Below are positions 172 through 58,712 of a stretch of DNA of 64,000 nt, one piece after another (positions within the stretch are counted from its first letter, which is position 1; the number at the start of each line of letters is the position of its first letter). The position numbers were made by a program, and so were the translations under genes. The DNA is from Bdellovibrionales bacterium. GTDB taxonomy: Bacteria; Bdellovibrionota; Bdellovibrionia; Bdellovibrionales; JAUICD01. The notes beneath the pieces are model-generated. The model did no database searches. It was given only the letters and a program-made list of their open reading frames with translations, and was not told the origin of the DNA. The DNA lies in contig OZ241865.1 of NCBI GenBank assembly GCA_965203275.1, positions 2,112,001-2,176,000 of the forward strand. Reading direction: 5' to 3'.

Positions 172-595
172 AAATCTTTTTCCTTAACATCTTGTTAAGA
201 AACAAAAGGATCCTCCCTACTAAAAGTAAACGGACTTTTGAGGCAATGACCATTTTGCCAATGGCGTAAAAAGTGAAATAAATATCTTGTTTCCTTAACA
301 TCGTGTAAAGAGACAAGAGGATTTTTCCTACTAAAAATAAACGGATTTTTGAGGCAATCAGCCTTTGATCGACGGTGATAAGCCGTCGGGCTGATTGTCC
401 AAAAACAGCTAGAAGCTGGTTTATTTTTAGTGAGACAAATGCGGTCATTGTCCAAAAGTGGCCAGAGGCCAGTTCACTTTGAGTGAAACAGACGGCATGA
501 TGCATTTTGTTCACTTTGAGTGAAACAGACGGCATGATGCATTTTGAGTGAAAAAGACCGCTTTTAGTGAAAAGGCCCACTTTTAGGGAAACGAA
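172..595 (+). repeat. Family A structured repeat cluster 1 (nested copies plus stacked 3'-arm fragments)
   Basis: TTTCCTTAACAT...GATCCT...ACTAAAA(G/A)TAAAC...hairpin...CCAGAGG...GTGAAA modules; a full copy at about 287-436 lies between an interrupted 5' part and a 3' part. Confidence 0.9.
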
Positions 596-627
596 AGTTA
601 TATATTCTTTTATTAAAATATCTCTTC

Positions 628-1275
628 TTATAAACTTTCTTCTGCAAAATGTAAATAACTACTAGCTATGGCTACTGCTTTTTCTATAAAAGCAATGCCT
701 GTTCCTAAATAATCTTCTGCTTGGAAACAAAAGCTATAAGCTTTTGGAGCTATGAGATTCCAATTGGAAATAAATATTTGGCTTATTAAAAAACTCTTAT
801 GTTCTTTTTGAGGAATACACTTTAAAGCAGATTCTTTAGCAACCCATAAAAGAGCAACTTGTGGAGCCTCTGTAATTTCTTCCTTTTGAGAGATGCGATT
901 TGCTAAAGTAAGTTTAACTCGCAAGACTTCTTCAACATCAAGTCCTATAAGAGTTTGAGGGTCAAAGGAAACAATAAATCCTCCTAAGATTTTGCAGTGA
1001 GAGATAGAAATAGACGCTGATGGATGATATGGTTTCCCCCCAGGAGTTAAAAGCTCTTGTTTATTTTTTATTGAAATATGTTTTTCTAAATAGTTCACAA
1101 GAACTTTTCTAAGATATAGACGTTGTTGCCACGTGGGACTAGAAGGACGACTCCATGATTGGAAATAACAATAAATAGAGTTATTTGCTTGATTGAGTGT
1201 TTTAAATTTATTTTGTATTTTGATTAAATCCATTGTAATCCATTTTAATCCATTATTTTGATTCCAAATAATCAT
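628..1275 (-). CDS. 4'-phosphopantetheinyl transferase family protein
   Basis: GKP..SISH..IGLDVE..WVAKESALK motifs; the true start may be about 13 codons downstream. Confidence 0.8.
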   Translation of the reverse strand: MIIWNQNNGLKWITMDLIKIQNKFKTLNQANNSIYCYFQSWSRPSSPTWQQRLYLRKVLVNYLEKHISIKNKQELLTPGGKPYHPSASISISHCKILGGFIVSFDPQTLIGLDVEEVLRVKLTLANRISQKEEITEAPQVALLWVAKESALKCIPQKEHKSFLISQIFISNWNLIAPKAYSFCFQAEDYLGTGIAFIEKAVAIASSYLHFAEESL

Positions 1276-1525
1276 AACTTATGTAAAAAACTATATAAAA
1301 AATCCAAACCTCATGTAAACTCTTTGCTTTATTGTTTGGGTATTGACAAATGATTATTTTGAGTATAAAGTCACTTAAGTTATCATTTATTTGGCTTTTA
1401 AATCAAATAAAATGGGTGAGTATCCTTTGTTATTTTGTGAGGAGGAGGTACTTTTATGCTTTTTCTCTTATCTTTTAGCTAACATTTAGCTAAAACAGAT
1501 TGTCAAATCAGGCAGAGTCTTTCTA

Positions 1526-1571
1526 TGAGGTGTGCCATATTGAGGTGTGCCATATTGAGATGTGCCATATT
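1526..1571. repeat. 15-bp tandem repeat x3 (TGAGGTGTGCCATAT)
   Basis: Directly visible upstream of rplS. Confidence 0.85.
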
Positions 1572-1703
1572 CTTATATGAAAAGAAGGGTTTTACTTATT
1601 TTTTGTGTTATGATATTGTAATATTTTAAGTCAAGTTTTATTAAACTTTTTATTAAACTCTAAGCAAACATAACCTATAACTATAATAAAGAAAGGATAG
1701 ACT

Positions 1704-2090
1704 ATGCATCATTTAATACAGGACATTGCGAAAAAAACAAATCATATTCCATTTAAGACAGGTGACACAGTTGAGGTCTATGCTCAAGTAAAAGAGGGGG
1801 AGAAAGAAAGACTGCAAGTTTTTAAAGGCTTAGTCCTTAAAATGCAGGGTTCTGGTGCTGGACGCTCATTTACTGTCAGAAAGATTGCCAGCGGAGTTGG
1901 CGTAGAGCGTACATTTCCTTTTGCAAGTCCTGCTATCAATAAAATTAAGCTAATTGCACATGGTCGTGTACGTCGCTCTCGCTTATATTACATTCGTAAG
2001 CTCAAAGGTAAAGCTGCTCGTATTGATTTTGAGCTGGCAACTCCAACTTCTACTCCATCTGCCACCTCATCAGAAGTTTCAACAAAATAA
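1704..2090 (+). CDS. rplS: 50S ribosomal protein L19
   Basis: FKTGDTVEV..EGEKERLQVFKG..FTVRKIASGVGVERTFP..GRVRRSRLYYIR. Confidence 0.98.
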   Translation: MHHLIQDIAKKTNHIPFKTGDTVEVYAQVKEGEKERLQVFKGLVLKMQGSGAGRSFTVRKIASGVGVERTFPFASPAINKIKLIAHGRVRRSRLYYIRKLKGKAARIDFELATPTSTPSATSSEVSTK

Positions 2091-2285
2091 AGTATATATT
2101 ACTTAGTAGTAAGCCTTGACAAAATGAAAAAAATACAGAAATTTAAGAAATAAGAGGTAAAAAACAAGATAATATTTTAATTGCTTGATTTTTGAATAAC
2201 TTGATCATTATAATATAATTAAAAGATAATTAATTAAAAGAAGCAAACCAACAGCAAAACAAGTCAACCAAAAGGAGATAAGCCA

Positions 2286-3986
2286 GTGATAAATAAAATT
2301 AAAAATATTCTTAAAGAAAAGCTAGGAGAAAAAGAAAACTCTAAGCCCTCTAATAATAAAGTTCCATCCCCTGAGGAGATACGTAGAGAGTTTGAGAGAG
2401 TCATCCGAGACAAGTTTGGAGCTTCTGTGCAGTTTCATACAGAAGTGGCTGTTCCTCGGAGCGTAGGTACATCAAAAGCACGTAGAGGATCAGATGATGA
2501 CGATGATGATCTTCTTAAAAAAATCAAATTTGAACACACCCCTAAAGAAGTCAAAGCTCATTTAGATAAAAATATTGTTCACCAGACAGAAGCTAAAAAA
2601 GCTTTAGCTATTGCTATCTGTGATCATTACAATCATGCTTTAGAATGTATTCACAACAAAAAAGACAACGACTATAAAGAAATAAACTATGCGAAACAAA
2701 ATGTACTTATGTTAGGACCTACAGGTGTAGGTAAAACTTATCTTGTTCGAGAACTGGCTAAACTTATTGGTGTGCCTTTTGTAAAGGCCGATTCGACTCG
2801 ATTTAGTGAAACTGGCTATGTGGGTGCTAATGTAGATGATTTGATCAGAGATTTAGTCTCTCAAGCTGATGGATATGTGGATTTAGCTCAATATGGCATT
2901 GTCTATTTAGATGAAGCTGATAAACTAGCATCTAATCAAACGAGAGGGAAGGACATCACAGGCCGAGGTGTACAATTTGGATTATTAAAGCTTATGGAGG
3001 AGACAGAAGTCGATTTAAGAGGTTCACATGATTTGATGTCTCAGATCAAAGCATTTTCAGATATGCAAAACAAAGGCAAAGTGGACAGAGAAGTCATTAA
3101 CACAAAACATATTCTATTTATTGTCAGTGGAGCTTTTACAGGTTTAAGAGATATTATTGAGGCAAGAGTCAGTAAGGGAAGTCTGGGTTTAGGAGGAGAG
3201 CTTAAGGATGAAAAAAGTGACTCTGAATATTTACGACAAGTGGCTACGGAAGATTTAATTGAATTTGGTTTTGAACCAGAATTTGTAGGTCGATTGCCTG
3301 TGCGTGTCACCTGCCATGAACTTTCTGAGAAGGATCTTTTTGATATTTTGAAATACTCTGAAGGGTCTATTTTAAAACAATACCGGCAAGCTTTTAAAAG
3401 CTATGATATTCAGTTTTGTTTTGAAGATTCAGGATTGAAAGCAATTGCTGAAAAAGCTTATAAAGAAAAAACTGGAGCAAGAGGTCTTGTGACTGTTTTA
3501 GAGACTCTTTTGAGAGATTACAAATTTGAATTGCCATCGACTGCTGTACAAAAGTTTACCTTAAGTCGTCACTTAGTTAATAATCCACCACATTACCTTA
3601 AAAATTTAATCTCTAGATCTAAAAAGAACAAATATTCTACTTTTCATAAAGAAATTTCAAAATTTGAAGATGATTTTTATAAAAAGCATGGTATTAAAAT
3701 CACTTTTGATACCAATGCTTGCAATGAGATATTATCGAAAGCTCAAGATCGTGCTGTCTCTCCAACAGAGATTTGCGAAGAAGTTCTTGCTTCTTATGAA
3801 CATGGATTTAATCTGATCAGACAAAACACAGGAAAGTCTGAATTTGAATTAACTCAAAATGTAGTTTTATTCCCAAGAATTACTTTAGAAGATTGGATTA
3901 AAGAATCATATTCTCAAGCAACTTCAAAAAACAAAAAAGCTTCTGCCACAAAAACTTCTGCTAAAACTAAAAAAAATCAAAAATAA
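2286..3986 (+). CDS. ClpX-like AAA+ ATPase lacking the N-terminal C4 zinc finger, with a C-terminal extension
   Basis: Walker A GPTGVGKT, ETGYVG, Walker B YLDEADK, PEFVGRLPV, TGARGL; AGGAG RBS before a GTG start. Confidence 0.85.
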   Translation: MINKIKNILKEKLGEKENSKPSNNKVPSPEEIRREFERVIRDKFGASVQFHTEVAVPRSVGTSKARRGSDDDDDDLLKKIKFEHTPKEVKAHLDKNIVHQTEAKKALAIAICDHYNHALECIHNKKDNDYKEINYAKQNVLMLGPTGVGKTYLVRELAKLIGVPFVKADSTRFSETGYVGANVDDLIRDLVSQADGYVDLAQYGIVYLDEADKLASNQTRGKDITGRGVQFGLLKLMEETEVDLRGSHDLMSQIKAFSDMQNKGKVDREVINTKHILFIVSGAFTGLRDIIEARVSKGSLGLGGELKDEKSDSEYLRQVATEDLIEFGFEPEFVGRLPVRVTCHELSEKDLFDILKYSEGSILKQYRQAFKSYDIQFCFEDSGLKAIAEKAYKEKTGARGLVTVLETLLRDYKFELPSTAVQKFTLSRHLVNNPPHYLKNLISRSKKNKYSTFHKEISKFEDDFYKKHGIKITFDTNACNEILSKAQDRAVSPTEICEEVLASYEHGFNLIRQNTGKSEFELTQNVVLFPRITLEDWIKESYSQATSKNKKASATKTSAKTKKNQK

Positions 3987-4849
3987 CGACTTTTAGCAGT
4001 GTTATGTTTTTTGATTTCACTTTGGAGTCGGTGGAGGGCTGTTTTACAATACTCTGTATCAATTTCTACTCCAAGGCTTTTCCGGCGGAGCATATAGGTT
4101 GCAATTAAAGTTGAACCACTTCCTAAAAAAGGATCTAATACAATATCACCTACAAAACTAAATAACTTAATACATCTTTTAGGGAGTTCTATAGGAAAGG
4201 CTGCTGGATGACCACCTGCTCCTTTTTTGCTTTGTCCTGAAAATGTCCATAGACCATTAGTCCAATCTATAAATTCTTTTTTTGTAATGTCATTTTCTTT
4301 GATGGTTTTCTTTTTCCAATATTTTTTATACAAAACTAAGATGACTTCAACAGGAGCAATGACATAAGGAGCAGATGCTGATAACCAAGACCCCCAAGCA
4401 GTCCTACGAGAAATATTCCCTTCATTCCAAATAATTGTAGAATGATAATGCCATCCCACTTTTTTAGCAATTGCTGTTATATCAGCACAAATAGACTGTT
4501 GTCCTCCTTTGTTTTTATCTAAGGGTATATTAAGACACAATCGACCATCATCTTTTGCCAATAGGTAACATTTCAAAAGCCACTTTTGAGTAAATTCCAA
4601 ATAATCTTTGTAAGATAAACAGTCTTTGTGTGTATTATAGTGAACATCTATATTGTAAGGAGGGGATGTGATCATAAGATCAACAGAAGTGTTAGGAATA
4701 TCTGTGACTTTTAAAATATCTTGATTGTATATAGAAAAATTCTCTCCTTGAAAATAAGGAACTTTTTGAGAAAAAGATTTACAAGTGCGGAAAGGTTCTA
4801 GCACAGTCATCAGTTGAAGTAGTATATTAAAAGCTTTCACAATTGTCAA
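3977..4849 (-). CDS. Orphan N4/N6 DNA methyltransferase (beta class)
   Basis: TSPPY precedes HPAAFP and DPFLGSGST; no adjacent endonuclease; start codon uncertain. Confidence 0.9.
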   Translation of the reverse strand: MTIVKAFNILLQLMTVLEPFRTCKSFSQKVPYFQGENFSIYNQDILKVTDIPNTSVDLMITSPPYNIDVHYNTHKDCLSYKDYLEFTQKWLLKCYLLAKDDGRLCLNIPLDKNKGGQQSICADITAIAKKVGWHYHSTIIWNEGNISRRTAWGSWLSASAPYVIAPVEVILVLYKKYWKKKTIKENDITKKEFIDWTNGLWTFSGQSKKGAGGHPAAFPIELPKRCIKLFSFVGDIVLDPFLGSGSTLIATYMLRRKSLGVEIDTEYCKTALHRLQSEIKKHNTAKSRYF

Positions 4850-4854
4850 ATTGC

Positions 4855-4898
4855 TTCACTTTGAGTGAAACAAACGACTGAGTTACTTTTAGTGAAAA
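4855..4898 (+). repeat. Two family A 3'-arm fragments
   Basis: ttcactttgagtgaaac and ttacttttagtgaaa. Confidence 0.65.
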
Positions 4899-4961
4899 TA
4901 ACGGCTTGACTTTGTTGTTATAAGGTTGTTATAAGATTAAAAATTCAAAAGGAAGGTACAA

Positions 4962-6104: not shown

Positions 6105-6156
6105 GACCAATCTATATTTGTCTCAAAATAAGAATCTTTTTTATCAAATAAATCAT

Positions 6157-6183
6157 TAAGTCAGACCAAAGCCAGACCGATAG
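6157..6183 (+). promoter_or_regulatory. sigma28 (FliA)-like promoter with no intact downstream + strand gene
   Basis: TAAG-N15-ACCGATAG; same module as at 39080, 39973 and 51737. Confidence 0.45.
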
Positions 6184-6454
6184 TTTCTTTAGGTATTTAA
6201 TTTAATCAATTAATATAGATCGAATAAAGAACAGATGACTTGAGCTTATCCTCTACAATCTGACGAATTTCTGACAAAGTATTGTCTGAAACTTGAAATG
6301 AATGACTATCTTTGGTACACATTCATAATGGCTCCTTTCTTTTTATTTTTAAAATTAATGGTTAATGAAATTTGGTTGGCTGAAATATGCCAACCAGGAG
6401 CCTTCTATCTTACATCCTCTCTAAGAAAAATTCACCGAATTATAGGACATGCTC

Positions 6455-7725
6455 CTTTTTCTCCTTAACATTTCACTCAAAATGAACTGGCCTCTGGCCA
6501 CTTTTGAGCTGGATCTTCAATTTATTTCTTAAATTTCAAAATCATTGCCCTGAGACCAGACTCTTTCCCATTCATATCATTAGCTTTTAAAAACCTTCAT
6601 CTTATTTGGCTTTGAAATTCTGTGCTTACAAATATCTCAAAAAGCGGGGTGCGATAAAGGAAATTTTTCCTTAACATTATGTAAAAAAACGAGGAGATCC
6701 TCCTTCCTAAAATTGAACAAGCTTTTGAGGGCATCAGGCAGAAAAGGCATTTTGTTTCCTTAACATGGTGTTAAGAGACAAGGAGATCCTCCTTACTAAA
6801 AGTGGTCGACAGCAAGCTTCTCTGAAGCTTGCCATGTAACAACACTAGGTGATGACCATTTTATCGACGGCGGTAGCCGTCGTGGTCATCGCCAGAAAGT
6901 AGCCAGAGGCTAGACCAAGTGAAACAGCTCCTCCAGCCTGCCCTCGCCTCCCACTCATAATATTCACGCTTTTTTGAGATTTACGCAGAATCTAAAAAGA
7001 ATAAAAAAACAAAAAAACGAACTCTTGTTTCCTTAACATTGTGTAAAGAGAGAAGAGGATTCTTCCTACTAAAAATAAACGGATTTTTGAGGCATTGCTC
7101 TTTTTAGACAGCGTAAGCTGTCAGAGCAATGCCCAAAAACAGCCAGAGGCTGGTTTATTTTTAGTGAGACAAACGCGGTCATTGCCCAAGGTGTAAGAAG
7201 GCATGTGGTCAAGAGACGAAGAGAGCGGTTAGCCTTTGATCGACGGCGGTAGCCGTCGGGCTAACTGCCCAAAAGTAGCCAGAGGCTAGTTTATTTTTAG
7301 TGAGACAAACGCGGTCATTGCCCAAGGTGTAAGAAGGAACTTTTTCCTTAACATGTGGTCAAGAGACGAAGAGATTCTTCTTCCTAAAATTGAACAAGCT
7401 TTTGAGGCGGTTAGCCTTTGATCGACGGCGGTAGCCGTCGGGCTAACTGCCCAAAAGTAGCCAGAGGCTAGTTTATTTTTAGTGAGACAAACGCGGTCAT
7501 TGCCCAAGGTGTAAGAAGGAACTTTTTCCTTAACATGTGGTCAAGAGACGAAGAGATTCTTCTTCCTAAAATTGAACAAGCTTTTGAGGCGGTTAGCCTT
7601 TGATCGACGGCGGTAGCCGTCGGGCTAACTGCCCAAAAGTAGCCAGAGGCTAGTTCAATTTTAGGGAAACAGAGGCATGATGCATTTTGAGTGCAAAAGA
7701 CGGCATGATTTATTTTGAGTGAATT
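6455..7725. repeat. Composite repeat cluster: family A copies (including a 182-bp tandem), a family B fragment and insert D
   Basis: 182-bp period at about 7215-7660; 6472-6633 is a near-identical inverted copy of 28802-28963. Confidence 0.9.
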
Positions 7726-21371: not shown

Positions 21372-21780
21372 ACTGGTTCACTATTTCACTAAAAGTAAAC
21401 CAGCCTTTGTTTCACTAAAAGTGGTCTGACCTCTGGTCACTTTCTGGCGATGACCACGATGGCTTTCGCCATCGATAAAATGGTCATTTGGTTCACTCAA
21501 AGTGAACTGGCCTCTGGCCACTTTTGGACGATGACCGCAAAGGCTTTCGCCTTTGACAAAATGGTCATCGTCTCAAAAGCCTGTTCACTTTGAGTAGGAA
21601 GGATCCTTTCCTCTTTTGACACGATGTTAAGGAAAAAGTTCCTTCTTACACCTTGAGTGTTGCCTGCAAAGGCTTTCGCCTTTGACAAAATGGTCATCGC
21701 CTCAAAAGCCTGTTCACTTTGAGTAGGGAGGATCTCTTCGTCTCTTAACACCATGTTAAGGAAAAATTCCTTCTTACACC
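21372..21780 (-). repeat. Family A cluster
   Basis: Reverse-orientation copies with CGATGGC/CAAAGGC apical hairpins. Confidence 0.9.
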
Positions 21781-24644: not shown

Positions 24645-25312
24645 TTCTGATGCCCGGTTGCCTGATCCTGGATCCTTTTGTCTTTTTACATGATGTTAAG
24701 GAAACAAGTCAATTGGTTTTTCACTCAAAATGAGCCACACCTCTGGTTCACTAAAAGTAAACTAGCCTCTGGCTACTTTTGGACAATGACCGCAATGGCT
24801 TTCGCCATTGGCAAAATGGTCATTGTCTCAAAAGTCCGTTTACTTTTAGTAGGGAAGGATCTCCTCATTTCTTAACACAATGTTAAGGAAACAAGATGTT
24901 TATTTCACTTTGATATTTCGCCATTGGCAAAATGGTCATTGTCTCAAAAGTCCGTTTACTTTTAGTAGGGAGGATCTCCTCATTTCTTAACACAATGTTA
25001 AGGAAACAAGATGTTTATTTCACTTTGATATTTCGCCATTGGCAAAATGGTCATTGTCTCAAAAGTCCGTTTACTTTTAGTAGGGAAGGATCTCCTCATT
25101 TCTTAACACCATGTTAAGGAAAAAGTTCAGTTTTAGGACCTGATGCCGGGTTGCCTGATTGTTTCCCTAAAATTGAACTAGCCTCTGGCTACTTTTGGGT
25201 AGCCAGCCCGACGACTTTCGTCGTCGATCAAAGGCTGGCTACCTCAAAAGCTTGTTCAATTTTAGGAAGGAGGATCCCTTCGTTTCTTGACAACATGTTA
25301 AGGAAAAAGTTT
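24645..25312 (-). repeat. Family A cluster with about 115-bp tandem half-copies
   Basis: ccattggcaaaatggtcattgtctc at 24805, 24921 and 25036; full copy at about 25160-25305. Confidence 0.9.
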
Positions 25313-28280: not shown

Positions 28281-28384
28281 TAAATCCTTCCAATGCCTTA
28301 TTATGCACAGATTACAAAAGATTGCAAACAAAAACAACCCACATTGTAAAGGTTATAGGGTACTTTGTAATTTTTACATAGTCT

Positions 28385-29100
28385 ATTTCCCTAAAATTGA
28401 ACTGGCCTCTAGCCACTTTTGGGCAGTTAGCCCGACGGCTGTCGCCGTCGATCAAAGGCTAAGCTGTTTCACTAAAAGTGGTCTAGCCTCTGGCTACTTT
28501 CTGGCAATGACCGCAATGGCTTTCGCCATTGGCAAAATGGTCATCGCCTAGAAAGCCTGACCACTTTTAGTAGGAAGGATCTCCTTGCTTTTTAACACCA
28601 TGTTAAGGAAAAAGTTCCTTTATTGCATTGAGCTTGCTTTCCAAAAACATTTTAGAGGTATATCTTGTTTCCCTAACATGGTGTAGAGGAATAAAAGGAT
28701 CCTCCTCTACTCAAAATGAACAAGCTTTTGAGGTAGCCAGCCTTTTACGACGGCGGTAGCCGTCGGGCTGATTGCCCATTACCATTCGCATCCAGATTTT
28801 TTATTTGTAAGCACAGAATTTCAAAGCCAAATAAGATGAAGGGTTGTAAAAGCTAATGATATAAATGGGAAAGAGTCTGGTCTCAGGGCAATGATTTTGA
28901 AATTTAAGAAATAAATTGAAGATCCAGCTCAAAAGTGGCCAGAGGCCAGTTCATTTTGAGTGAAAAAAATTGAGGACTTCGGAAGGCTCACACTGCCCTA
29001 TCCTCAAATAAAAATAAAATGGAAAAGCAGAATCGAAGGGTGGTGGGTGAGGTTAGGGAAGTTCCTTCTGACCAGATCCCAGATCCCGGATCCCAGATCA
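28385..29100. repeat. Composite cluster: family A (minus then plus, one copy carrying the ~150-bp insert D), family B right half, heptamers
   Basis: ACTAAAAGTGGTC/GACCACTTTTAGT copy; ACTCAAAATGAAC...GTTCATTTTGAGT copy expanded by an insert; 28969-29060 matches 35600-35692. Confidence 0.88.
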
Positions 29101-35692: not shown

Positions 35693-35694
35693 TT

Positions 35695-36700
35695 GTTTCA
35701 CTCAAAGTGAACGGACTTTTTAGGTAGCCAGCCTTGATGAAGGAACTTTTTCCTTAACATTTCACTCAAAATGAACCACACCTCTGGTGTGTTTTTTGGT
35801 GTTGCCTGCAAAGGCTTACGCCTTTGACAAAATAGGCAACACCTAAAAAATCTGTTCATTTTGAGTAGGGAGGATCCACTCGTCTCTTTACACGATGTTA
35901 AGGAAAAAGAGTTTCATTTGTAAAGTCGCTTGCTCCTGAGGTAATAAAAGAAATTTTCCCTAACATGGTGTAAAGGAATAAAAGGATCCTCTTTTACTCA
36001 AAATAAATGAATTTTCTAGGCAGTTAGCCTTTGATCGACGGCGAAAGCCGTCGGGCTAACCATTAGAAGGATGTTTTCCTTAACATGTAGTCAAAAAACG
36101 AAGAGATCCTCCCTACTCAAAGTGAACAGGCTTTTGAGACAATGACCATTTTGTCAAAGGCGAAAGCCTTTGCGGTCATTGTCCAAAAGTGGCCAGAGGC
36201 CAGTTCACTTTGAGTGAAAAAGAGGCTGGTTTATTTTTAGTGAACCTTGATGAAGGAACTTTTTCCTTAACATGGTGTTAAGAAACGAAGAGATCCTCCC
36301 TACTCAAAGTGAACAGGCTTTTGAGACAATGACCATTTTGTCCTTAACATGGTGTTAAGAAACGAAAGATCCTCCCTACTCAAAGTGAACAGGCTTTTGA
36401 GACAATGACCATTTTGTCAAAGGCGAAAGCCTTTGCGGTCATTGTCCAAAAGTGGCCAGAGGCCAGTTCACTTTGAGTGAAAAAGAGGCTGGTTTATTTT
36501 TAGTGAACCTTGATGAAGGAACTTTTTCCTTAACATGGTGTTAAGAAACGAAGAGATCCTCCCTACTCAAAGTGAACAGGCTTTTGAGACAATGACCATT
36601 TTGTCAAAGGCGAAAGCCTTTGCGGTCATTGTCCAAAAGTGGCCAGAGGCCAGTTCACTTTGAGTGAAAAAGAGGCATGATGCATTTTGAGTGAAAAAGA
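35695..36700. repeat. Family A cluster with a ~186-bp tandem
   Basis: ccttaacatg starts at 36078, 36265, 36342 and 36528. Confidence 0.92.
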
Positions 36701-40816: not shown

Positions 40817-41506
40817 TTGAATATCAAACAATATGTAGCTTATTATAGAGTATCAACATCAAGGCAAACTATTGGCTTGCAAGCTCAAGAGACAATGGTC
40901 AAAGCCTATCTTAAAGATCAATGGCCCCCTATCAAGTCATTCACAGAAAAGGAAAGTGGCAAGTGTGATAAGAATCGACCGCAATTGCAATTGGCTTTGG
41001 AGTATTGCCAACAGCACAAGGCTACTTTGATAGTGGCTACATTGAGTCGATTAAGTCGGGATTTGCATTTTATAACGTCTCTATCCAAATCTAAGATAGA
41101 TTTTGTATGTTGTGATATGCCGGATGCAACACCATTGACAATAAACTTGATGGGAGCAATAGCTCAATATGAAAGAGAAACTATATCTAAGAGGACAAAG
41201 CGGGCTTTGGAAGAGTTAAAAAGTCGTGGGGTAGAACTTGGAGCAAATAATCCTAAGGTAAGGGCAGGTCTTGAGAAATATCGTGAAAGACAAAAAAAAG
41301 AACAAGATAACAAGGTAAAGCCTCAAAAAGTTAAAGCAAACTCTCAAATAAATGAACCATCAAAGATCGAGCAAGCTGATCAAAAACATATTCAAGCATT
41401 ACAAATATTGAGACGAAACAAACATTCATGGAAAAGGATTGCCTACGAATTTAACCTGCACGGGTTTCAAACACGTTTAGAGGCAAGTGGCATCGAACAT
41501 CAATGA
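40817..41506 (+). CDS. Serine recombinase (resolvase/invertase family), C-terminal HTH apparently frameshifted
   Basis: YYRVST, ESGK, RPQL..AL, LSRLSRD, ERETISKRT; GKWHRTS continues in another frame after TRL. Confidence 0.9.
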   Translation: MNIKQYVAYYRVSTSRQTIGLQAQETMVKAYLKDQWPPIKSFTEKESGKCDKNRPQLQLALEYCQQHKATLIVATLSRLSRDLHFITSLSKSKIDFVCCDMPDATPLTINLMGAIAQYERETISKRTKRALEELKSRGVELGANNPKVRAGLEKYRERQKKEQDNKVKPQKVKANSQINEPSKIEQADQKHIQALQILRRNKHSWKRIAYEFNLHGFQTRLEASGIEHQ

Positions 41507-46824: not shown

Positions 46825-47174
46825 GAACTTTTTCCTTAACATGATGTAAAGAAACGAAGGGATCCTCCATACTCAAAGTGGTCAGGCTTTTGAGGAGATG
46901 AGCATTTTATCGACGGCGAGAAAATAAACATCTTGTTTCCTTAACATGGTGTTAAGAAATGAGGACATCCTTCTTCCTAAAATTGAACAGGCTTTTGAGG
47001 GCATCAGGCAGAAAAGGCATTTTGTTTCCTTAACATGGTGTTAAGAGACGAGAGGATCCTCCCCTACTAAAAGTAAACGGACTTTTGAGGTAGCCAGCCT
47101 TTGATCGACGGCGGTAGCCGTCGGGCTGGCTACCCAAAAGTGACCAGAGGTCAGTTTACTTTTAGTGAAACAGA
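46825..47174 (+). repeat. Family A cluster; clean reference copy at 47021-47174
   Basis: All helices intact. Confidence 0.92.
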
Positions 47175-49483: not shown

Positions 49484-49491
49484 AAGGCATT

Positions 49492-50467: not shown

Positions 50468-51352
50468 TGTTTCACTAAAAGTGGTCTGTTTCCCTAAAAG
50501 TAAACTGACCTCTGTTTCACTAAAAGTAAACTGACCTCTGGTCACTTTTGGGCGATGACCACGACGACTGTCGTCGTCGATAAAATGGTCATCACCTCAA
50601 AAGTCCGTTTACTTTTAGTAGGGGAGGATCCTCTCGTCTCTTAACACAATGTTAAGGGTTTGTCTCACTAAAAGTAAACTGACCTCTGGTCACTTTTGGG
50701 CGATGACCACGACGACTGTCGTCGTCGATAAAATGGTCATCACCTCAAAAGTCCGTTTACTTTTAGTAGGGGAGGATCCTCTCGTCTCTTAACACAATGT
50801 TAAGGGTTTGTCTCACTAAAAGTAAACTGACCTCTGGTCACTTTTGGGCGATGACCACGACGACTGTCGTCGTCGATAAAATGGTCATCACCTCAAAAGT
50901 CCGTTTACTTTTAGTAGGGGAGGATCCTCTCGTCTCTTAACACGATGTTAAGGGTTTGTCTCACTAAAAGTAAACTGACCTCTGGTCACTTTTGGTCATC
51001 ACCTCAAAAGTCCGTTTACTTTTAGTAGGGGAGGATCCTCTCGTCTCTTAACACGATGTTAAGGGTTTGTCTCACTAAAAGTAAACTGACCTCTGGTCAC
51101 TTTTGGGCGATCGATAAAATGGTCATCACCTCAAAAGTCCGTTTACTTTTAGTAGGGGAGGATCCTCTCGTCTCTTAACACGATGTTAAGGGTTTGTCTC
51201 ACTAAAAGTAAACTGACCTCTGGTCACTTTTGGGCGATGACCACGACGACTGTCGTCGTCGATAAAATGGTCATCACCTCAAAAGTCCGTTTACTTTTAG
51301 TAGGGAGGATCCCTTCGTTTCTTTACTCCATGTTAAGGAAAAAGTTCCTTCA
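50468..51352 (-). repeat. Family A tandem array, six units (148, 148, 148, 111, 127 bp plus a terminal copy)
   Basis: taaaagtaaactgacc at 50521, 50669, 50817, 50965, 51076 and 51203. Confidence 0.95.
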
Positions 51353-51582
51353 TCAAGGCTGGCAACCTCATAAAACTTCAAATAAAAAAAGAGACCACAA
51401 GGCCCCCTTTTGTCTAAATACATAGAAAAGATTTAGTTTTCATATCTACAAAGATAGACATTGTCTTTAAGTGTGTCTAAAAGAGACAATAAAAAATATA
51501 AAAATTTTATAAAACCCACAATAACCCCACTTTTAAAGGTTAAACTTTGATAGCTCGCATCATTTATTGACCCACACACCAC

Positions 51583-51675
51583 AATCTTCAAAACCAATAT
51601 GGCTGGACGGCTTTAACGCATGCTAAGGACACTGATATTGTAAGACTATTAAAAGAGGCCGGGGTTACAAAATAA
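51583..51675 (+). pseudogene. Orphan 3' end of an ankyrin gene
   Basis: NLQNQYGWTALTHAKDTDIVRLLKEAGVTK*, homologous to the ends of 4962-6104 and 40041-40733. Confidence 0.8.
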
Positions 51676-51736
51676 GACCAATTCTATATTTGTCTCAAAA
51701 TAAGAATTTTTTTTTATCTTTTATCAAATAAATCAT

Positions 51737-51763
51737 TTAGTAAGTCAAAAGTCCTGCCGATAC
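51737..51763 (+). promoter_or_regulatory. sigma28 promoter
   Basis: TTAG-N15-GCCGATAC. Confidence 0.6.
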
Positions 51764-51799
51764 TTTCTTTAGGTATACTTTTAAGAAAGGAAACAAAAT

Positions 51800-52432: not shown

Positions 52433-52467
52433 TCCCTTTTGTCTTTATTGCCTTTTTTCAAACAACT

Positions 52468-52820
52468 TTATTTTTGCAGGCTATCAAACTCAGGTTTCAT
52501 CATGCGATTATAATGTCTTTCATATCCACTCTCTTTAAAAACCAACTGAAATGCTTCTTTGAAATTTTCATAATCAAGCTCTTTTGTATCAGATATATTT
52601 TGACTGTCAGAATGAGACTCTCTATTTATGTAGCGATGAAAGGCTTGGTATTTTGATTCTTTAAATTTTTCAAAAACTTCATTTAAGTCTTCTTTTTCAA
52701 TAAAATTCAATAAAACCAAAAAAAATATTCAAGACGCATGCCATTTGCCATTAAGGCTCGTGGTTGCTGGCGGTCTTTTACAATACTCCAGTAAGAATGT
52801 CAAGTTATTTTTCAATTGGT
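52468..52820 (-). pseudogene. 3' remnant of an AAA_13/RloC-like ATPase gene
   Basis: HSYWSIVKD..LMANGMR..EYFF (frameshifted), then YINRESHSD..F..VF..GYERHY..MM. Confidence 0.6.
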
Positions 52821-52823
52821 TAA

Positions 52824-54530
52824 ATGATTGCAATAAAAAAACAATTAAGGCAAACTGCAAAATTGATGAATAAAATTTTGACCTACCTCCTCCAAAGCCA
52901 TAGATTTTTGAGACATTGTTTGTTTCGCCAAGACCTTAAACATTCAAAAGAAACTCATACAGATGTATTTCATTCTGCTACTATTATGGCAGCAGGAACA
53001 TTAACAAGTCGATCTGTAGCTCTTATCAGAGAAATGGTTCTGGCTGCTTATTTCCCTCGCTTTGTCACTGATATATGGATTGTAGCACTACGTATTCCCA
53101 ATCTCTGTCGTCGCCTCTTTGGCGAAGGAGCTTTATCCGTAGCCTTTATTCCTATCTTTGTAGAACTTTTGGAAAATAATTCTAAAGATCAAGCTAAAAA
53201 ACTTGTTGATGCCGTTTTTAGCATCATGCTCATTTCTCTCTTAACCATTTTTATGCTAGGTCTCATATTTGCTCCTCAAATTGTCCATTGGCTGACTGCT
53301 GGAGAGGGCTTTGCACAAATAGAAAACAAAGTAGCTCTGACTATTTACTTTACTCGCATTATGATGGTCTTTTTGATTTTGGTTTGTCTCTATGCCTTTT
53401 TTATGTCCATTCAAAACAGCTTCAAACAATTTGCTATACCTGCCCTTGCCCCTGTATTTTTTAATTTGTCTATTGTAGTCGCAGCTCTTTTACCTTCTAA
53501 TTTATTTGATGTGTCAGGTGAAGTTTTAGCTTGGGCTGTAGTTATAGGTGGCATTTTGCAGTTAGCCGTTATGATCCCAGGTGTATACCATCTAGGCTAC
53601 TTACCACGCTTCCGTTTGAAACAAAGTTTAACCTTTAAGCCTGTCAGAAAAGTCTTTCAAAAACTTTTACCTAGTGTCATAGGTGTTGGAGTCTTACAGC
53701 TAACTGTTTTAGTTAATACAAGATTTGCAAGTTATTTACAAGAAGGTGCAAATTCTTGGATATTTTGGGCAGATCGCTTATTAGAACTCCCATTATCCTT
53801 AATAGCTGTCAGTATGGGGACAGCTCTCTTGCCTACATTATCAAAATACTCTGCTCAAAAACAAATGAATGAAATATCTGACTTAATCCATCAAAGTCTT
53901 AGATATGTATTGTTTTTAGGGATACCTGCAAGTATAGCCTTTTTTATACTCTCAGAGCTTTTAGTGCAGGTCATATTTCAAAGAGGGCATTTCAAACTTG
54001 AAGATGTCATGTACACATCTGCTGTGTTGCGTATTTATGGGATAGGTATTGTAGCTTATGGAAGCATCCGTGTATTACAACCAGCTTTTTATGCTATTCA
54101 AAACACATGGATTCCTGCATTGATATCCGCTATCTGTTTAGCTTTTCATATTCTACTAGCATCTTATCTGTTAGAAAGTTATAAAATTGAAGGACTTGCT
54201 TTTTCATCTATAGTTAGTGCTATGCTCAATATGTTTTTTTTACTTTTAATGTATAAGTTTTTCATTGGTCCTTTAGAATACTTAAAAATGTTTCTTTATT
54301 TGATACGTATATTACTGGCTGCTTTTGTTATGGCCGTAGGATTAAAAATAACTGTGTTTTATTTTTCTCCTGAGAGTATAGGTTTGCGTTTTTTGCTTTT
54401 GTGTGTGACTTGTTTGATAGGCTTGATATGTTATTTTAAAACAGCACTGTACCTTCAATGTCCAGAAGCTACAAATATTTTAAATAGAATAAAAAATATC
54501 CAATGGCTTAAATTTTTTAATAAAAAGTGA
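52824..54530 (+). CDS. murJ: Lipid II flippase
   Basis: TLTSR..RE, RIPNL.RRLFGEGALS.AFIP, ADRLLELP; the true start is probably downstream. Confidence 0.95.
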   Translation: MIAIKKQLRQTAKLMNKILTYLLQSHRFLRHCLFRQDLKHSKETHTDVFHSATIMAAGTLTSRSVALIREMVLAAYFPRFVTDIWIVALRIPNLCRRLFGEGALSVAFIPIFVELLENNSKDQAKKLVDAVFSIMLISLLTIFMLGLIFAPQIVHWLTAGEGFAQIENKVALTIYFTRIMMVFLILVCLYAFFMSIQNSFKQFAIPALAPVFFNLSIVVAALLPSNLFDVSGEVLAWAVVIGGILQLAVMIPGVYHLGYLPRFRLKQSLTFKPVRKVFQKLLPSVIGVGVLQLTVLVNTRFASYLQEGANSWIFWADRLLELPLSLIAVSMGTALLPTLSKYSAQKQMNEISDLIHQSLRYVLFLGIPASIAFFILSELLVQVIFQRGHFKLEDVMYTSAVLRIYGIGIVAYGSIRVLQPAFYAIQNTWIPALISAICLAFHILLASYLLESYKIEGLAFSSIVSAMLNMFFLLLMYKFFIGPLEYLKMFLYLIRILLAAFVMAVGLKITVFYFSPESIGLRFLLLCVTCLIGLICYFKTALYLQCPEATNILNRIKNIQWLKFFNKK

Positions 54531-54537
54531 GTCTTAG

Positions 54538-55434
54538 ATGATAAAAATTTATATATTTTTTTTCTCTATAATATTTTTTAAGGGTTTGGTTTTTGCAGAA
54601 GATAGCTTGCTACCCCCTCCAAGCTCCTTAAGTTTATATGAGATTTTTAAACACAATCAGACTTTAGATAACATCATAGCAAGACAAAAAACACAGCAAC
54701 CATCTTCAAGCAATAAAGAGCAGATGTCTTTGGAAGCAAAGATACAAGATCAAGAGTTTAACATTCAAAAATCTGAACGTGATTTTTTTGAAAGACTGTT
54801 AGCAAAATATCCTGATCAGATCGTTTTACATTATAATTTTGCTTGGTTTTTTATAAATAAGCAGAAAACCATAAGCCAGTTTAACTTTGTTTTAAAATCA
54901 AAAACATTTGATGAGCTGAGGTTTATGTCTGCTTTTAATATAGGGACTTTATATGGATTTGACAAAAAATTGCATACTGAAGATGAAAGCCGACTTGATC
55001 GAGCCCTTCAATATTATCAGATGGCTTTAGATATAAAACCAGACTCTCAAGAAACAAAACAAAATATTGAGATGCTCTTTCTACAACAAGCTAGACAACA
55101 ACAAACTGAATCTTCACAACAAGACAGCTCCCAAGAAAATAATAAACAGCAACAACAAGATAAATCTCAAAAGCAAGGTCAAAAAAATGAAACCTCTCAT
55201 CAAAAAAAGTCCGATAAAAATGGTCAAAAAGAAGAGCCAAAACAAGAATTTCAAAGCCAAAAATTAAGCAAAAGAGATGTACAAGATATTTTAGAAGAAC
55301 TCAAACAACAAGAGCAGAAGATTTGGCAAGAACTTATTCGCAAGCAAAGTCAAAATAATCAAGCCCGACCTTTGCCCAACAAGATGTTTAAAGAACAACA
55401 GTCTCAAGACAAAGCTTTAGAAAAGGATTGGTAA
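54538..55434 (+). CDS. BatC-like TPR protein
   Basis: FNIG..AL..Y..AL.I.P...K.N.E, Q-rich linker, C-terminal EKDW. Confidence 0.8.
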   Translation: MIKIYIFFFSIIFFKGLVFAEDSLLPPPSSLSLYEIFKHNQTLDNIIARQKTQQPSSSNKEQMSLEAKIQDQEFNIQKSERDFFERLLAKYPDQIVLHYNFAWFFINKQKTISQFNFVLKSKTFDELRFMSAFNIGTLYGFDKKLHTEDESRLDRALQYYQMALDIKPDSQETKQNIEMLFLQQARQQQTESSQQDSSQENNKQQQQDKSQKQGQKNETSHQKKSDKNGQKEEPKQEFQSQKLSKRDVQDILEELKQQEQKIWQELIRKQSQNNQARPLPNKMFKEQQSQDKALEKDW

Positions 55435-55548
55435 ATATGCAGGACTTATGTAGGGTGCATATTTAACAAAAATTAAAGTTATCTGAAGTTTTTACCGAAC
55501 AATTAAATGTACCTTTACAAGTAGTATGAAATAAGAGGGGAAATTATA

Positions 55549-57096
55549 ATGACTAAAATAATGACTAAAAAACCAAAAAGTAAAAGCATGTCACATCAAC
55601 AAAGGACATACTTGCTACTTATTTGTCTTACATTTTTGTTTATTGGATTCCAAAATTGTGGTCGAGATAACGCTCTAGAGAGTGATTCAGAGAATCCATC
55701 CACTCCTACAGCGTCGCCTTCACCCACACCGGCAAAAATTAAAAAAATATATACAGGTATTCAACATAACTGTTCTTTAGATGATGCAGGGCAGGTAAAA
55801 TGCTGGGGACTCAATGATAGTGGTCAGTTAGGTCAAGGTCATATAACAGATATTGGTACTTCAAGCGATCACATAACAGATTTAGATGATATCAATTTAG
55901 ATTCCAAACATAAAAGTGTGTCTCTTGCTCTGGGGGATAAATATAGCTGTAGCCTTTTAGATAACGATCATGTTAAGTGCTGGGGGCTTAATAATAAAGG
56001 TCAGTTAGGTTATAACAACACAGAAGATTTAGGTGATGAACCTAATGAAATGGGATCTCACCTGGCCATTGTAGGTGGTACGAATTTCAAAGTTAGATCG
56101 ATTGCATCAGGATATAGCCATACCTGTGTGATTATGAAAAAGTCTGGCCAAACCAATGCAGGACCAGTCAAATGCTGGGGAGAAAATAACTATGGTCAGT
56201 TGGGTCAAGGCAATACTAACAATATTAAGACTCCAAGTGACCATGAAAATATCGATCTTGGACATGATAGTATAGCTCTTGCTACTGGTCATAAACACAC
56301 TTGTGCTTTGCTCGATAATGACTGTGTGAAATGCTGGGGAGGCAATGATTTTGGTCAGTTAGGTTACGAAGACCTTGATAGTCGGGGTGATGCATCAAAT
56401 GAAATGGGGTCTAACTTAGACCCTGTAGGAGGTCAAGAGTTTAAAGTTAAGGCTATTGTAGCAGGACATAGCCATACCTGTGTGATCAGAAAGAACTTTG
56501 GTTCAGTGACTGATGTAGAAGGTAAAGTGCAATGTTGGGGGAATAACAACAAGGGGCAATTAGGTCAAGGTAATATAGACACTCTAGGTGATGATGCCGA
56601 TGAAATTACAGATTTACAGTTTGTTGATTTAGGTTCAAATCGTAAAGCTAAGTCTATTTTTGCAGGGGAAAATCATACCTGTGCAAGGTTAGATAATGAT
56701 CATTTAAAATGCTGGGGAGAAAATAAATTTGGTCAGCTAGGTCAAGGTTCTACCAATGACATTGGTAACGAAGCTAATGAAATGGGTGATGAATTGATGA
56801 GCGTCCCTATTGCTGCTAGTCGTACTCTTGCTAGTGTACCATCTGATCAAGTAGATCATACAATATCTGTTGGTGGTCATAATACTTGTTTTATCTTAGA
56901 TGATTTCAAAGCAAGATGCTGGGGTGATAATTTTTCTGGTCAGTTAGGTCAAAATCATGCATGTTCTCTAGGCAACGGCAAAGGCTATTTTGCAGAAGGG
57001 GCAGATGCTCAAGCTCAATGTGACCCTCCTAGCAATACTCCAGAAGATAAAGTGGTTGGACACACTGTCGACAAAATCAATCCTATAGATCTCTAA
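55549..57096 (+). CDS. RCC1/BLIP-II beta-propeller repeat lipoprotein
   Basis: Seven HTC...KCWG.N..GQLG repeats; FQNC leader. Confidence 0.92.
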   Translation: MTKIMTKKPKSKSMSHQQRTYLLLICLTFLFIGFQNCGRDNALESDSENPSTPTASPSPTPAKIKKIYTGIQHNCSLDDAGQVKCWGLNDSGQLGQGHITDIGTSSDHITDLDDINLDSKHKSVSLALGDKYSCSLLDNDHVKCWGLNNKGQLGYNNTEDLGDEPNEMGSHLAIVGGTNFKVRSIASGYSHTCVIMKKSGQTNAGPVKCWGENNYGQLGQGNTNNIKTPSDHENIDLGHDSIALATGHKHTCALLDNDCVKCWGGNDFGQLGYEDLDSRGDASNEMGSNLDPVGGQEFKVKAIVAGHSHTCVIRKNFGSVTDVEGKVQCWGNNNKGQLGQGNIDTLGDDADEITDLQFVDLGSNRKAKSIFAGENHTCARLDNDHLKCWGENKFGQLGQGSTNDIGNEANEMGDELMSVPIAASRTLASVPSDQVDHTISVGGHNTCFILDDFKARCWGDNFSGQLGQNHACSLGNGKGYFAEGADAQAQCDPPSNTPEDKVVGHTVDKINPIDL

Positions 57097-57312
57097 TTTT
57101 GGTGACTTTTAATTTTGAATAAGATAGCAAATTAAAAATTGCTTGGAATTAAAGTGGATTTTTTAATTTGGTATGCTATTTTTAACTTGATAAGCTATGC
57201 TATAGATGTTAGTTTGTGAAAATTAAAATAAACAGAATTACAGAATTGAATTACAGAATTTAAGATGAAGATATCAAAGCCTAAGAAACCCTAGGAAACT
57301 CAGAGAAACATT

Positions 57313-58572
57313 ATGCCATCTTTAGATTTTAAAGGCAAATCTGAAATTTATTCTCATCATTTGACAGTACCTTGTTATCCTTTAAAAATAGATAGCAAAA
57401 AGTCTTTTGGTTTTCAAAATGGTACATCACAGTGGACCCCTTCCCTCAACGACAATTTGATCATTCATGGTGATAATCTTTATGCTCTTAAGTCTCTTTT
57501 GCCTCAATATGCAGGTCGGATCAAATGCATTTACATTGACCCACCTTATAATACAGGGAATGAAAAATGGAAATACAATGACAATGTCAACTCTCCTTTA
57601 ATGAAGACATGGCTTGGTCAAGTTGTGGATTTAGACGATCTTGAAAAGCATGATAAATGGCTTTGCATGATGTGGCCTCGGTTGCAGTTGCTCAAAGAAC
57701 TTCTTGCTGAAAATGGTGTTATTTTTGTTTCTATTGATGATCATGAGCAATGCCGGTTACAAATGATGATGAATGAAATTTTTGGAGAAAAAAATTGCAT
57801 CACAACCCTTATCAAGCCTACAAAGATTGGCGGAGGGAATAACTCAAAACACATAGTAAAGAGTCACGAATATATTTTGGTTTATGCTCAAAGCAAGTCA
57901 CAATTAATGCCTCTGTTTGTCAAACATCAAAAAGATTATCTTAAAAGATATAGAGAAAGAGATAAAAAAGGTAGGTTCTTTTGGGATACACTTAATCGTC
58001 CTGGCTTGAGAAATGCTCATTATAGTATCACAGCTCCTGATGGCACTGCTATTGAAGGGTCTTGGATATGGTCCAAAAAGCGAGTAGAAAAAGCTATCCA
58101 ATTAGGTGAAATTAGAATAGAAAAGATCAATCGTAAATGGAGTGTGCATTTTAAACAAAGACTTAATATAAAGGGTAAAAAATTAACTAGCCTGTTAAGT
58201 CGAGAATTAGTTGGAGGGACAATAGAAGGAAGCCGTGAAATGAAAGATATATTTCATAATGCATATATATTTCCTTACCCTAAATCATCTCATTTAATTA
58301 AGTTTCTTTTAGAGAGTTTAAACTGTCAAGATGCCATTGTTTTAGACTCTTTTGCTGGCACAGGTACAACAGCTCATGCTGTTTTGCAGTTGAATCAAGA
58401 AGACGGAGGCCAGCGTAAATTTATTCTTGTTGAATGTGAAGATTATGCTCATACAATCACAGCTGAACGGGTACGTAAAGTGATCAAAGGTATTCCTCAA
58501 TCTCAAAATAAGAAGCTTCAAAAAAAAATGAAAGGTTCTTTTACTTATTGTCAATTAGATTTTAATACTTAA
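57313..58572 (+). CDS. Type III R-M Mod-like methyltransferase lacking the C-terminal domain
   Basis: GDNL.AL, YIDPPYNTG, FVSIDD.E, FPYPK, DSFAGTGTT; ends about 110 aa earlier than its paralog. Confidence 0.9.
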   Translation: MPSLDFKGKSEIYSHHLTVPCYPLKIDSKKSFGFQNGTSQWTPSLNDNLIIHGDNLYALKSLLPQYAGRIKCIYIDPPYNTGNEKWKYNDNVNSPLMKTWLGQVVDLDDLEKHDKWLCMMWPRLQLLKELLAENGVIFVSIDDHEQCRLQMMMNEIFGEKNCITTLIKPTKIGGGNNSKHIVKSHEYILVYAQSKSQLMPLFVKHQKDYLKRYRERDKKGRFFWDTLNRPGLRNAHYSITAPDGTAIEGSWIWSKKRVEKAIQLGEIRIEKINRKWSVHFKQRLNIKGKKLTSLLSRELVGGTIEGSREMKDIFHNAYIFPYPKSSHLIKFLLESLNCQDAIVLDSFAGTGTTAHAVLQLNQEDGGQRKFILVECEDYAHTITAERVRKVIKGIPQSQNKKLQKKMKGSFTYCQLDFNT

Positions 58573-58621
58573 ACACAATGTTTATACCGACAATCAAGCA
58601 AGCTACCCTAGGTTTAGAAGG

Positions 58622-58712
58622 AGCTTTTTCTTTAACATTTCACTCAAAATGCATCATGCCTCTGGCATGTTTTTGGACAATGACCGCGTTTGTTTCACTA
58701 AAAATAAACAAA
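58622..58712 (-). repeat. Family A fragments
   Basis: ctttaacat|ttcactcaaaatgcatcatgcctctggcatg...tgaccgcg...ttcactaaaaataaac. Confidence 0.8.

What the first reader, a model, noticed from the sequence alone, without database searches (positions are those of the whole stretch)
172..58712. Family A: abundant ~150-nt intergenic element whose fold, not sequence, is conserved (candidate new structured RNA/ssDNA mobile element)
Seen: about ten clusters (near 0.2, 4.9, 6.5-7.7, 21.4, 24.7, 28.4, 35.7-36.7, 46.8, 50.5 and 58.6 kb) with roughly 25-30 full or partial copies. Reference copy 47021-47174: TTTGTTTC-[CTTAACA TGG TGTTAAG]-AGACGA-GAGGATCCTC-CCCT-P1-GGA-CTTTTGAG-P3-TTTGAT-P4-P3'-CAAAAG-P5-P1'-GAAACAG. 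The core helices covary between copies. P1: ACTAAAAGTAAAC/GTTTACTTTTAGT, ACTCAAAGTGAAC/GTTCACTTTGAGT, CCTAAAATTGAAC/GTTCAATTTTAGG, ACTAAAAGTGGTC/GACCACTTTTAGT, ACTAAAAATAAAC/GTTTATTTTTAGT. P3: GTAGCCAGCC/GGCTGGCTAC, ACAATGACC/GGTCATTGT, GCATTGCTC/GAGCAATGC. P4: CGACGGC, CAAAGGC, CAATGGC, CGATGGC or GACAGC stems with GAAA/GTAA/GGTA loops. P5: TGGCC, TAGCC, CAGCC, TGACC, CATGCC or CACACC stems around a near-invariant AGA loop. The termini also pair (GTTTC/GAAAC, CTTTTTC/GAAAAAG). The mismatches I checked are G-T only in the TTTCC-to-GTGAAA orientation. Inference: selection acts on a single-stranded multi-branch fold, as in a ribozyme, an RT-template RNA or an HUH (REP/REPIN-like) substrate. I do not recognise it as a known Rfam or REP family, and no mobilising enzyme is in the window.
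Basis: partly seen in the sequence, partly recalled or inferred. Interest (0 to 1): 0.9.

Follow-up and report, generated by a model that had tools for sequence, protein, structure and literature searches.

The report
Self-nesting three-armed hairpin DNA repeat
A 146-base non-coding DNA unit that keeps the same three-armed fold while its sequence varies fills about 6% of an uncultured Bdellovibrio-like genome and often lands inside older copies of itself; it looks like a selfish repeat of a broadly familiar kind whose copying route is unknown.

Summary
The family is real and larger than reported: 38 copies in the window and about 1,330 in the genome (6.1%), none inside long ORFs. Helices P1-P5 covary across genomes (31 of 42 pairs; 0 of 500 shuffles). 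The head hairpin and terminal pairing do not covary, and the G-T bias is real but modest. No Rfam match. It is confined to one genus; copies in a third genome lie on contaminant contigs. Paralogous empty sites show no target duplication and usually target loss (22 of 26). New copies often nest in old ones, rejoining at the P5 loop. No RAYT, RT, IS110 or TnpB was found in this genome. The closest partner is the heptamer-repeat/four-helix-bundle cassette: 204 of 300 heptamer arrays are followed by a copy, and that gene is interrupted at the same base in two species. Such cassettes also occur without the element. Best reading: a non-autonomous ssDNA-folding repeat copied by break-primed template switching, enzyme unknown. 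Eight earlier scan notes described this family in other windows of this genome.

The parts
1..109 (+). 3' part of a four-helix-bundle gene (TIGR02436 / PF05635, 101 aa; starts 197 bases before the window), one of 11 near-identical genes in the genome
128..167 (+). heptamer tandem array (family B), right arm of the four-helix-bundle cassette, directly followed by an A head
172..592 (+). nested cluster: host 5' part 176-268 cut at the P4 loop, linker, full copy 288-438, host 3' part 441-491, then stacked 3' tails
4851..4900 (+). two orphan 3' tails
6450..6510 (-). 3' fragment joined to an orphan head on the other strand
6664..7672 (+). cluster of six full or partial copies, with a tandem 182-base unit
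21381..21766 (-). cluster: 5' part, full copy 21490-21635, 3' part, tail
24670..25309 (-). cluster: full copies 25161-25306 and 24745-24891, two 5' parts, orphan head
28382..28967 (.). inverted pair: minus copies 28383-28614, spacer F, plus copies 28666-28778 and 28926-28967
35694..36700 (.). head, reverse full copy 35759-35906, spacer F, then a plus array with full copies 36075-36220, 36339-36483, 36525-36670 and tails
46828..47006 (+). two 5' parts stacked before the reference copy
47025..47171 (+). reference full copy. Invariant head 47028-47036; P1 47066-47078/47154-47166; P2 47082-47087/47135-47140; P3 47089-47098/47125-47134; P4 47106-47123 (loop 47113-47116); P5 47141-47153 (loop 47146-47148, the nesting hot spot)
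50511..51344 (-). tandem array of six copies, two internally deleted
58616..58720 (.). orphan head joined to a reverse 3' fragment and tail

Best explanation
A non-autonomous selfish repeat whose working form is the folded top strand, most likely as single-stranded DNA: an invariant unpaired head, then a three-way junction of P1, the P2-P3-P4 arm and P5. Shown: it multiplies inside the genome, stays out of long ORFs, leaves no target duplication, usually removes some target bases, and often inserts into an older copy so that the host resumes at its P5 loop. Inferred: copies are written in by break- or gap-primed template switching. A free 3' end at a nick or stalled fork switches onto another copy, copies it from head to right end, and rejoins the target by a few bases of microhomology; ectopic recombination then shuffles helix alleles. 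The fold would serve as the recognition or stalling structure. The break-making factor is not identified. Candidates are the expanded Rpn endonucleases, host hairpin processing, or whatever moves the heptamer/four-helix-bundle cassettes to which the element is attached.
For: Covariation. Top-strand bias, 57 G-T versus 24 A-C. P4 loop G-N-N-A with 230 of 691 loops not GNRA; GCGNNAGC in 585 of 739 copies, the extra-stable DNA mini-hairpin named in the abstract of PMC13037366. Identical dispersed twins for 101 of 700 copies. Empty sites: 22 of 26 lose 4 or more bases, one is a clean insertion without duplication. 330 of 604 orphan 3' ends start at model positions 121-131; 84 of 91 tails differ in allele from the copy before them; outer P1 arms match in 54 of 144 nests versus 17.4 shuffled, maximum 34. 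No Y1, RT, IS110, TnpB or PDDEXK_3 gene found in G000. RpnA ends can prime polymerase template switching (PMC5350276, abstract and section 30); Rpn hits number 57 in G000 and 43 in G001.
Against: No enzyme is shown. Rpn genes are also expanded in G003 (20 hits), which lacks the element, and only 6 of 18 G001 rpn loci have a copy nearby, in no fixed geometry. RpnA is reported as non-specific, which does not explain selection on the fold. Flank identity between twins ends about as far left as right (medians 11 and 10), so a fixed-right, variable-left polarity is not shown by that test. 90 of 144 nests have unmatched outer arms. Empty sites are paralogues, so losses are overestimated and may post-date insertion. 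DNA versus RNA is weakly resolved: both strands fold equally and the P4 closing pair varies in G001. The proteome was not scanned as a whole.
Confidence: 0.5

Rival explanations
1. A REPIN/BIME-like substrate of an HUH transposase acting in trans, encoded outside this assembly or since lost; deletions arose later.
For: High intergenic copy number; invariant unpaired head beside a hairpin; inverted pairs around spacer F (146 of 1,018 heads); mosaic arrays. TnpA-REP cleaves ssDNA near a REP and its 3'-OH may prime replication (PMC8266576 passages).
Against: No Y1 gene in G000; the Y1 gene of G001 has no copy nearby; junctions imprecise; recent identical copies imply an active route. The Y2 search was blank, but its control did not ring either.
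Confidence: 0.18
2. An RNA intermediate: a small structured RNA, possibly a ribozyme or bound by the Avd-like four-helix-bundle protein, copied back by target-primed reverse transcription.
For: Strand-biased fold; many 5'-truncated pieces with an intact 3' end; microhomology at the 3' junction; 12 of 252 ends carry upstream duplications versus 19 of 1,000 controls; G001 has a retron-type and two group II-type RT genes (types judged from the sequences).
Against: No RT in G000 and no remnant of the G001 RTs there; only 1 of 3 G001 RT loci has a copy nearby, at a tRNA; a third of P4 loops are not GNRA; no Rfam match; the truncated pieces are largely explained by nesting.
Confidence: 0.12
3. The covariation is mostly a mutational by-product: arms homogenised by intrastrand template switching, spread by gene conversion, with little selection on the fold.
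For: Few discrete helix alleles with almost no intermediates; many mismatched helices are recombinants of two perfect alleles.
Against: Five helices keep register around one junction in two species with new alleles; G-T exceeds A-C; loop and head bases are invariant.
Confidence: 0.12
4. A host-maintained RNA element (terminator, stabiliser or regulator).
For: Right ends lie close to convergent stop codons (49 of 365 within 5 bases versus 0 of 69 heads) and to 6 of 38 tRNA genes.
Against: Little orientation bias; disrupts dispensable genes and itself; genus-restricted; copy number differs about fourfold between species.
Confidence: 0.05

Closest known systems
REP / BIME / REPIN elements with RAYT (TnpA-REP) (PMC3116915 and PMC8266576, passages read)
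   Same: Non-autonomous, intergenic, hundreds of copies, ssDNA hairpins, inverted doublets and tandem mosaics, invariant unpaired motif beside the stem.
   Different: 146-base three-way junction rather than a 20-50-base palindrome; no GTAG tag; no RAYT in the genome; target loss; nesting at an internal loop.
bcr1 of the Bacillus cereus group (as summarised in PMC3184786, passages read)
   Same: About 155 bases, branched fold kept by compensatory changes, non-conserved positions, no known enzyme of its own.
   Different: bcr1 has 5-base direct repeats; this element has none. No sequence comparison with bcr1 was run.
Bacterial MITEs (PMC3184786, passages read)
   Same: Short, non-coding, stable fold, mobile.
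   Different: No general terminal inverted repeats, no target duplication; ends unrelated to the IS256 and IS1634 of this genome.
Four-helix-bundle (23S rRNA IVS protein, TIGR02436/PF05635) genes with short tandem repeat arms (PMC4990558, search listing only; earlier scan notes)
   Same: Physically linked here: heptamer arrays precede heads, and the gene is cargo and target.
   Different: The cassette occurs without the element in 0 of 9 large-contig G004 loci and 0 of 54 loci of other genomes, so the element is a local passenger or parasite, not a fixed part.

Membership tests
REP/REPIN-RAYT | RAYT (Y1 HUH) gene in the genome, flanked by the repeat | tested here: not met
   0 hits in G000; the one G001 hit has no copy nearby
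REP/REPIN-RAYT | 20-50-base palindrome preceded by a conserved tetranucleotide, mostly GTAG | tested here: not met
   146-base branched fold; the invariant motif is a 9-base head about 30 bases before P1
REP/REPIN-RAYT | High copy number in intergenic DNA, inverted doublets and mosaics | tested here: met
   1,332 copies, 0 wholly inside ORFs of 250 aa or more; 146 of 1,018 heads follow spacer F
REP/REPIN-RAYT | Cleavage of the folded ssDNA by a cognate enzyme | not testable with these tools
   needs biochemistry
MITE | Terminal inverted repeats | tested here: not met
   outer pair at chance level, 228 versus 229 of 700; a reverse head closes only 54 of 726 full copies
MITE | Target site duplication | tested here: not met
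   22 of 26 paralogous empty sites lose bases; the 2 apparent duplications are targets that resemble the right end
bcr1-like | Branched fold kept by compensatory changes | tested here: met
bcr1-like | 5-base flanking direct repeats | tested here: not met
Described RNA families (Rfam 15, ribozymes included) | Covariance-model match | tested here: not met
   only a tRNA at gathering score; best E 0.23 on the reference cluster
Retroelement template | Reverse transcriptase in the genome | tested here: not met
   the genome is 90% complete by markers
Retroelement template or ribozyme | Discrete transcript; self-cleavage | not testable with these tools
   no RNA holder listed
Xer-exploiting element | Head equals an arm of the host dif site | tested here: inconclusive
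   one dif-like 28-mer in G000 shares the head but is not conserved in 40 relatives

The most novel reading that the evidence does not exclude
The element is a transposase-free replicator that parasitises the route by which heptamer-flanked four-helix-bundle cassettes move. Its three-way ssDNA junction provokes and templates break- or gap-primed copy-in by host replication enzymes, possibly with the four-helix-bundle protein as the structure-binding factor. This would explain why it follows heptamer arrays, hits the same base of that gene in two species, and nests at its own P5 loop. It would be a new mobility mechanism and the first handle on TIGR02436 function.
Probability: 0.2. Interest if true: 0.88.

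Novelty: new variant of a known kind. Interest (0 to 1): 0.56.

Why it matters
How structured bacterial repeats spread when no cognate transposase is present (bcr1 is one case) is open. This family gives about 670 distinct full-length alleles, a sharply defined fold, mapped junctions, a self-targeting hot spot and a physical tie to a widespread gene family of unknown function, so the question becomes testable. It also occupies 6% of a small genome and disrupts or carries genes. The organism is uncultured, and the family seems limited to one genus.

Tried and rejected
Four-helix-bundle gene as the cognate mobiliser: 11 of 11 genes have a copy downstream, 10 on the same strand (baseline 386 and 170 of 1,890), and the gene first seemed to co-occur with the element in three genomes. 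But all 9 G004 head matches lie on three small contigs, one of which carries a second rplN 98% identical to G001 while the native one is 79%. The link runs through heptamer arrays (183 of 261 without the gene, 21 of 25 with it). Retron RT beside a copy in G001: judged coincidental. Small HNH gene beside a cluster in G000: the similar G001 gene has no adjacent copy. GIY-YIG: one 653-aa ORF, taken as UvrC from size and recall. TnpB zinc ribbon: one 1,365-aa ORF, taken as rpoC from size and recall. IS256 and IS1634 have their own ends; IS256 sits inside A in 2 of 6 copies. dif/XerD resemblance: not conserved. Hairpin preference of downstream target DNA: no excess (6.8% versus 5.5%). Replication-strand bias: skew too weak to place the origin. 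First empty-site search too noisy. Reads: no RNA holder listed; contigs of 4 runs break at the clusters and show no empty site. No match in viral contigs, plasmids or phages; two metagenome matches were head-only by eye. Ten literature searches listed no paper on this family; the library lacks most subscription journals and no supplements were read.
Full report
Observation. The reference copy is at 47021-47174 as described. An HMM from 200 genomic copies gave 2,034 hits in the window's genome G000 (2.57 Mb, 35% GC, one contig) and 0 on the reversed genome. After removing overlapping opposite-strand hits there are 1,332 copies, 739 full-length, 667 distinct, covering 157,686 bases (6.1%); 0 of 1,332 lie wholly inside an ORF of 250 aa or more. 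The window holds 38 copies, 20 near full length. Relatives of a neighbouring gene come mostly from records titled Bdellovibrionales or Bdellovibrionota.

Fold. Pairs of P1-P5 lead the covariation ranking. On 39 copies from G000, G001 and G004 contigs, 31 of 42 pairs change on both sides and 98.2% of cells pair, against 82.8% in shuffles (0 of 500 reach it) and at most 50.2% with slid partners (copies are related, so this is not a probability). The structure is a three-way junction. Each helix has only about 5-16 perfect alleles, combined in mosaics. Two claims fail: the head hairpin has an invariant 5' arm and an often broken 3' arm, and the terminal pair is at chance level, 228 versus 229 of 700. 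G-T exceeds A-C by 57 to 24 single-mismatch haplotypes, strongly in P3 (145 versus 33 cells) and little or not at all in P1, P2 and P5. The P4 loop is G-N-N-A; 230 of 691 loops have a pyrimidine where RNA GNRA loops need a purine (rule recalled, also in the listing of PMC4371310), and 585 of 739 copies carry the DNA mini-hairpin motif named in the abstract of PMC13037366. This leans to ssDNA, weakly, because the closing pair varies in G001 and both strands fold equally well.

Distribution. A covariance model matched 3 of 151 genomes of the order and only G000 among 151 of the phylum (only 20 candidates per genome are scored). Head motifs number 842 in G000, 224 in G001, 9 in G004 and 0 in G002 and G003. 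The 9 in G004 lie on three small contigs; one carries a second rplN 98% identical to G001, while the rplN on a large contig is 79% identical. I read these contigs as contamination from the G000/G001 genus (shown for one, inferred for two), so the family is genus-restricted among the genomes searched. Rfam, viral contigs, plasmids and phages gave nothing.

Mobility and junctions. 101 of 700 full copies have an identical twin over 5 kb away, often with unrelated flanks. 40 of 563 clusters had a paralogous empty site; I dropped 14 as duplicates of one event or as sites that are themselves repeats. Of the other 26, 22 lose 4 or more target bases (median 23, inflated by paralogue divergence), 2 lie within 3 bases of zero, and 2 apparent duplications are targets resembling the right end. 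By eye, right junctions show 1-5 bases of microhomology and left junctions a variable linker of about 6-22 bases. Of 604 orphan 3' ends, 330 begin at model positions 121-131, the P5 loop. 84 of 91 tails that follow a full copy carry another P1 allele, and outer P1 arms match in 54 of 144 nests versus 17.4 in shuffles (a few of the 144 are copies with short internal insertions). The host's 5' part is cut at scattered positions 69-114. The right end resembles the 5' arm of P5 over about five bases, so microhomology alone may create the hot spot. Window 172-592 is a clear example. Right ends abut convergent stop codons (49 of 365 within 5 bases, 32 overlapping the element; heads 0 of 69) and 6 of 38 tRNA genes. 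Against a simple one-ended model, twin flanks diverge at similar distances on both sides.

Enzyme search. In G000 no Y1 transposase, RT, IS110 or PDDEXK_3 gene was found; GIY-YIG and TnpB profiles hit only one long ORF each; the Y2 search is uninformative. IS256 and IS1634 have unrelated ends. Two tyrosine recombinases and seven HNH hits show no specific tie. About 45 of about 1,900 ORFs were scanned against libraries, so an unusual enzyme could be missed. G001 has three RT genes and one Y1 gene; only a retron-type RT has a copy nearby, and G000 has no trace of them. Rpn genes are expanded (57, 43, 0, 20 and 3 hits in G000-G004) and are frequent among the 58 ORFs flanked by repeats on both sides, but only 6 of 18 G001 loci have a copy nearby. 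PMC5350276 (abstract, section 30) reports RpnA as a non-specific endonuclease whose ends prime template switching.

The four-helix-bundle link. Eleven near-identical TIGR02436 genes all have a copy within 152 bases downstream, 10 on the same strand; one ends at window base 109. The gene sits between heptamer arrays. 204 of 300 arrays are followed by a head, with or without the gene, so the tie is to the arrays. The gene is also a target and cargo: 20 3' fragments exist in G000, nearly all right after a right end, 8 starting at base 204, 4 at 207, 7 at 251 and 1 at 265, and three G001 loci are interrupted at the same base 204 with other left linkers (these may descend from few events). 12 of 17 G001 loci have a copy within 1.5 kb, but 0 of 9 on large G004 contigs and 0 of 54 in other genomes. 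The protein resembles 2GSC; no catalytic activity is known to me (recall).

Reading. Shown: a genus-restricted, recently active, fold-conserving intergenic repeat without target duplication, with target loss and self-nesting. Inferred (0.5): copy-in by break- or gap-primed template switching on folded ssDNA. Rivals: a missing HUH enzyme (0.18), an RNA/RT route (0.12), mutational covariation (0.12), host function (0.05). It works like REPIN/BIME or bcr1 repeats but fails their defining tests (PMC3116915, PMC8266576, PMC3184786; passages only), so I class it as a new variant of a known kind. Eight earlier scan notes describe the same family in other windows of this genome, and eight describe the heptamer/four-helix-bundle cassette elsewhere; these are leads, not support. 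Ten literature searches found no description; subscription journals and supplements were not seen.

Noticed in passing
G004 contigs C1, C4, C11 (L146-L149): Small contigs that look like contamination from the G000/G001 genus: a second rplN 98% identical to G001.
   Followed up: partly
L053-L117 (many loci): In other Bdellovibrionota the four-helix-bundle gene is often preceded by a perfect palindrome and the reverse start of a second copy, that is two genes head to head around one hairpin.
   Followed up: no
L057:1501-1857; L150:2369-2725: In-frame insertion of about 60 bases in several G004 four-helix-bundle genes.
   Followed up: no
G000:2068418-2068444 (L203): A dif-like 28-mer whose right arm equals the bottom strand of the element's head; not conserved in relatives.
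   Followed up: yes
L182 (G001): Retron-type RT fused to an N-terminal domain (590 aa) next to a partly duplicated tRNA-Asp, with a copy joined straight to the tRNA's CCA end.
   Followed up: partly
G000 tRNA genes: 6 of 38 tRNA genes have a right end within about 12 bases, three just after the CCA.
   Followed up: partly
G000 genome-wide: Further repeat modules (D, E, spacer F and another with direct sub-repeats) are joined to the element; about 13% of the genome is covered by high-copy words.
   Followed up: partly
window 40817-41506: Serine resolvase gene, one of six related copies in the genome, each upstream region similar.
   Followed up: no
window 57313-63402: Type III restriction-modification genes (two methylases and a res subunit) beside the 58.6-kb cluster.
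   Followed up: no
G000 genome-wide: Almost no GC-skew polarity, as expected of a heavily rearranged chromosome; many rpn genes are split by copies.
   Followed up: no
window 6800-6845: A 40-base extra hairpin inserted in the P2 region of one copy; the same insert recurs elsewhere in the genome.
   Followed up: no
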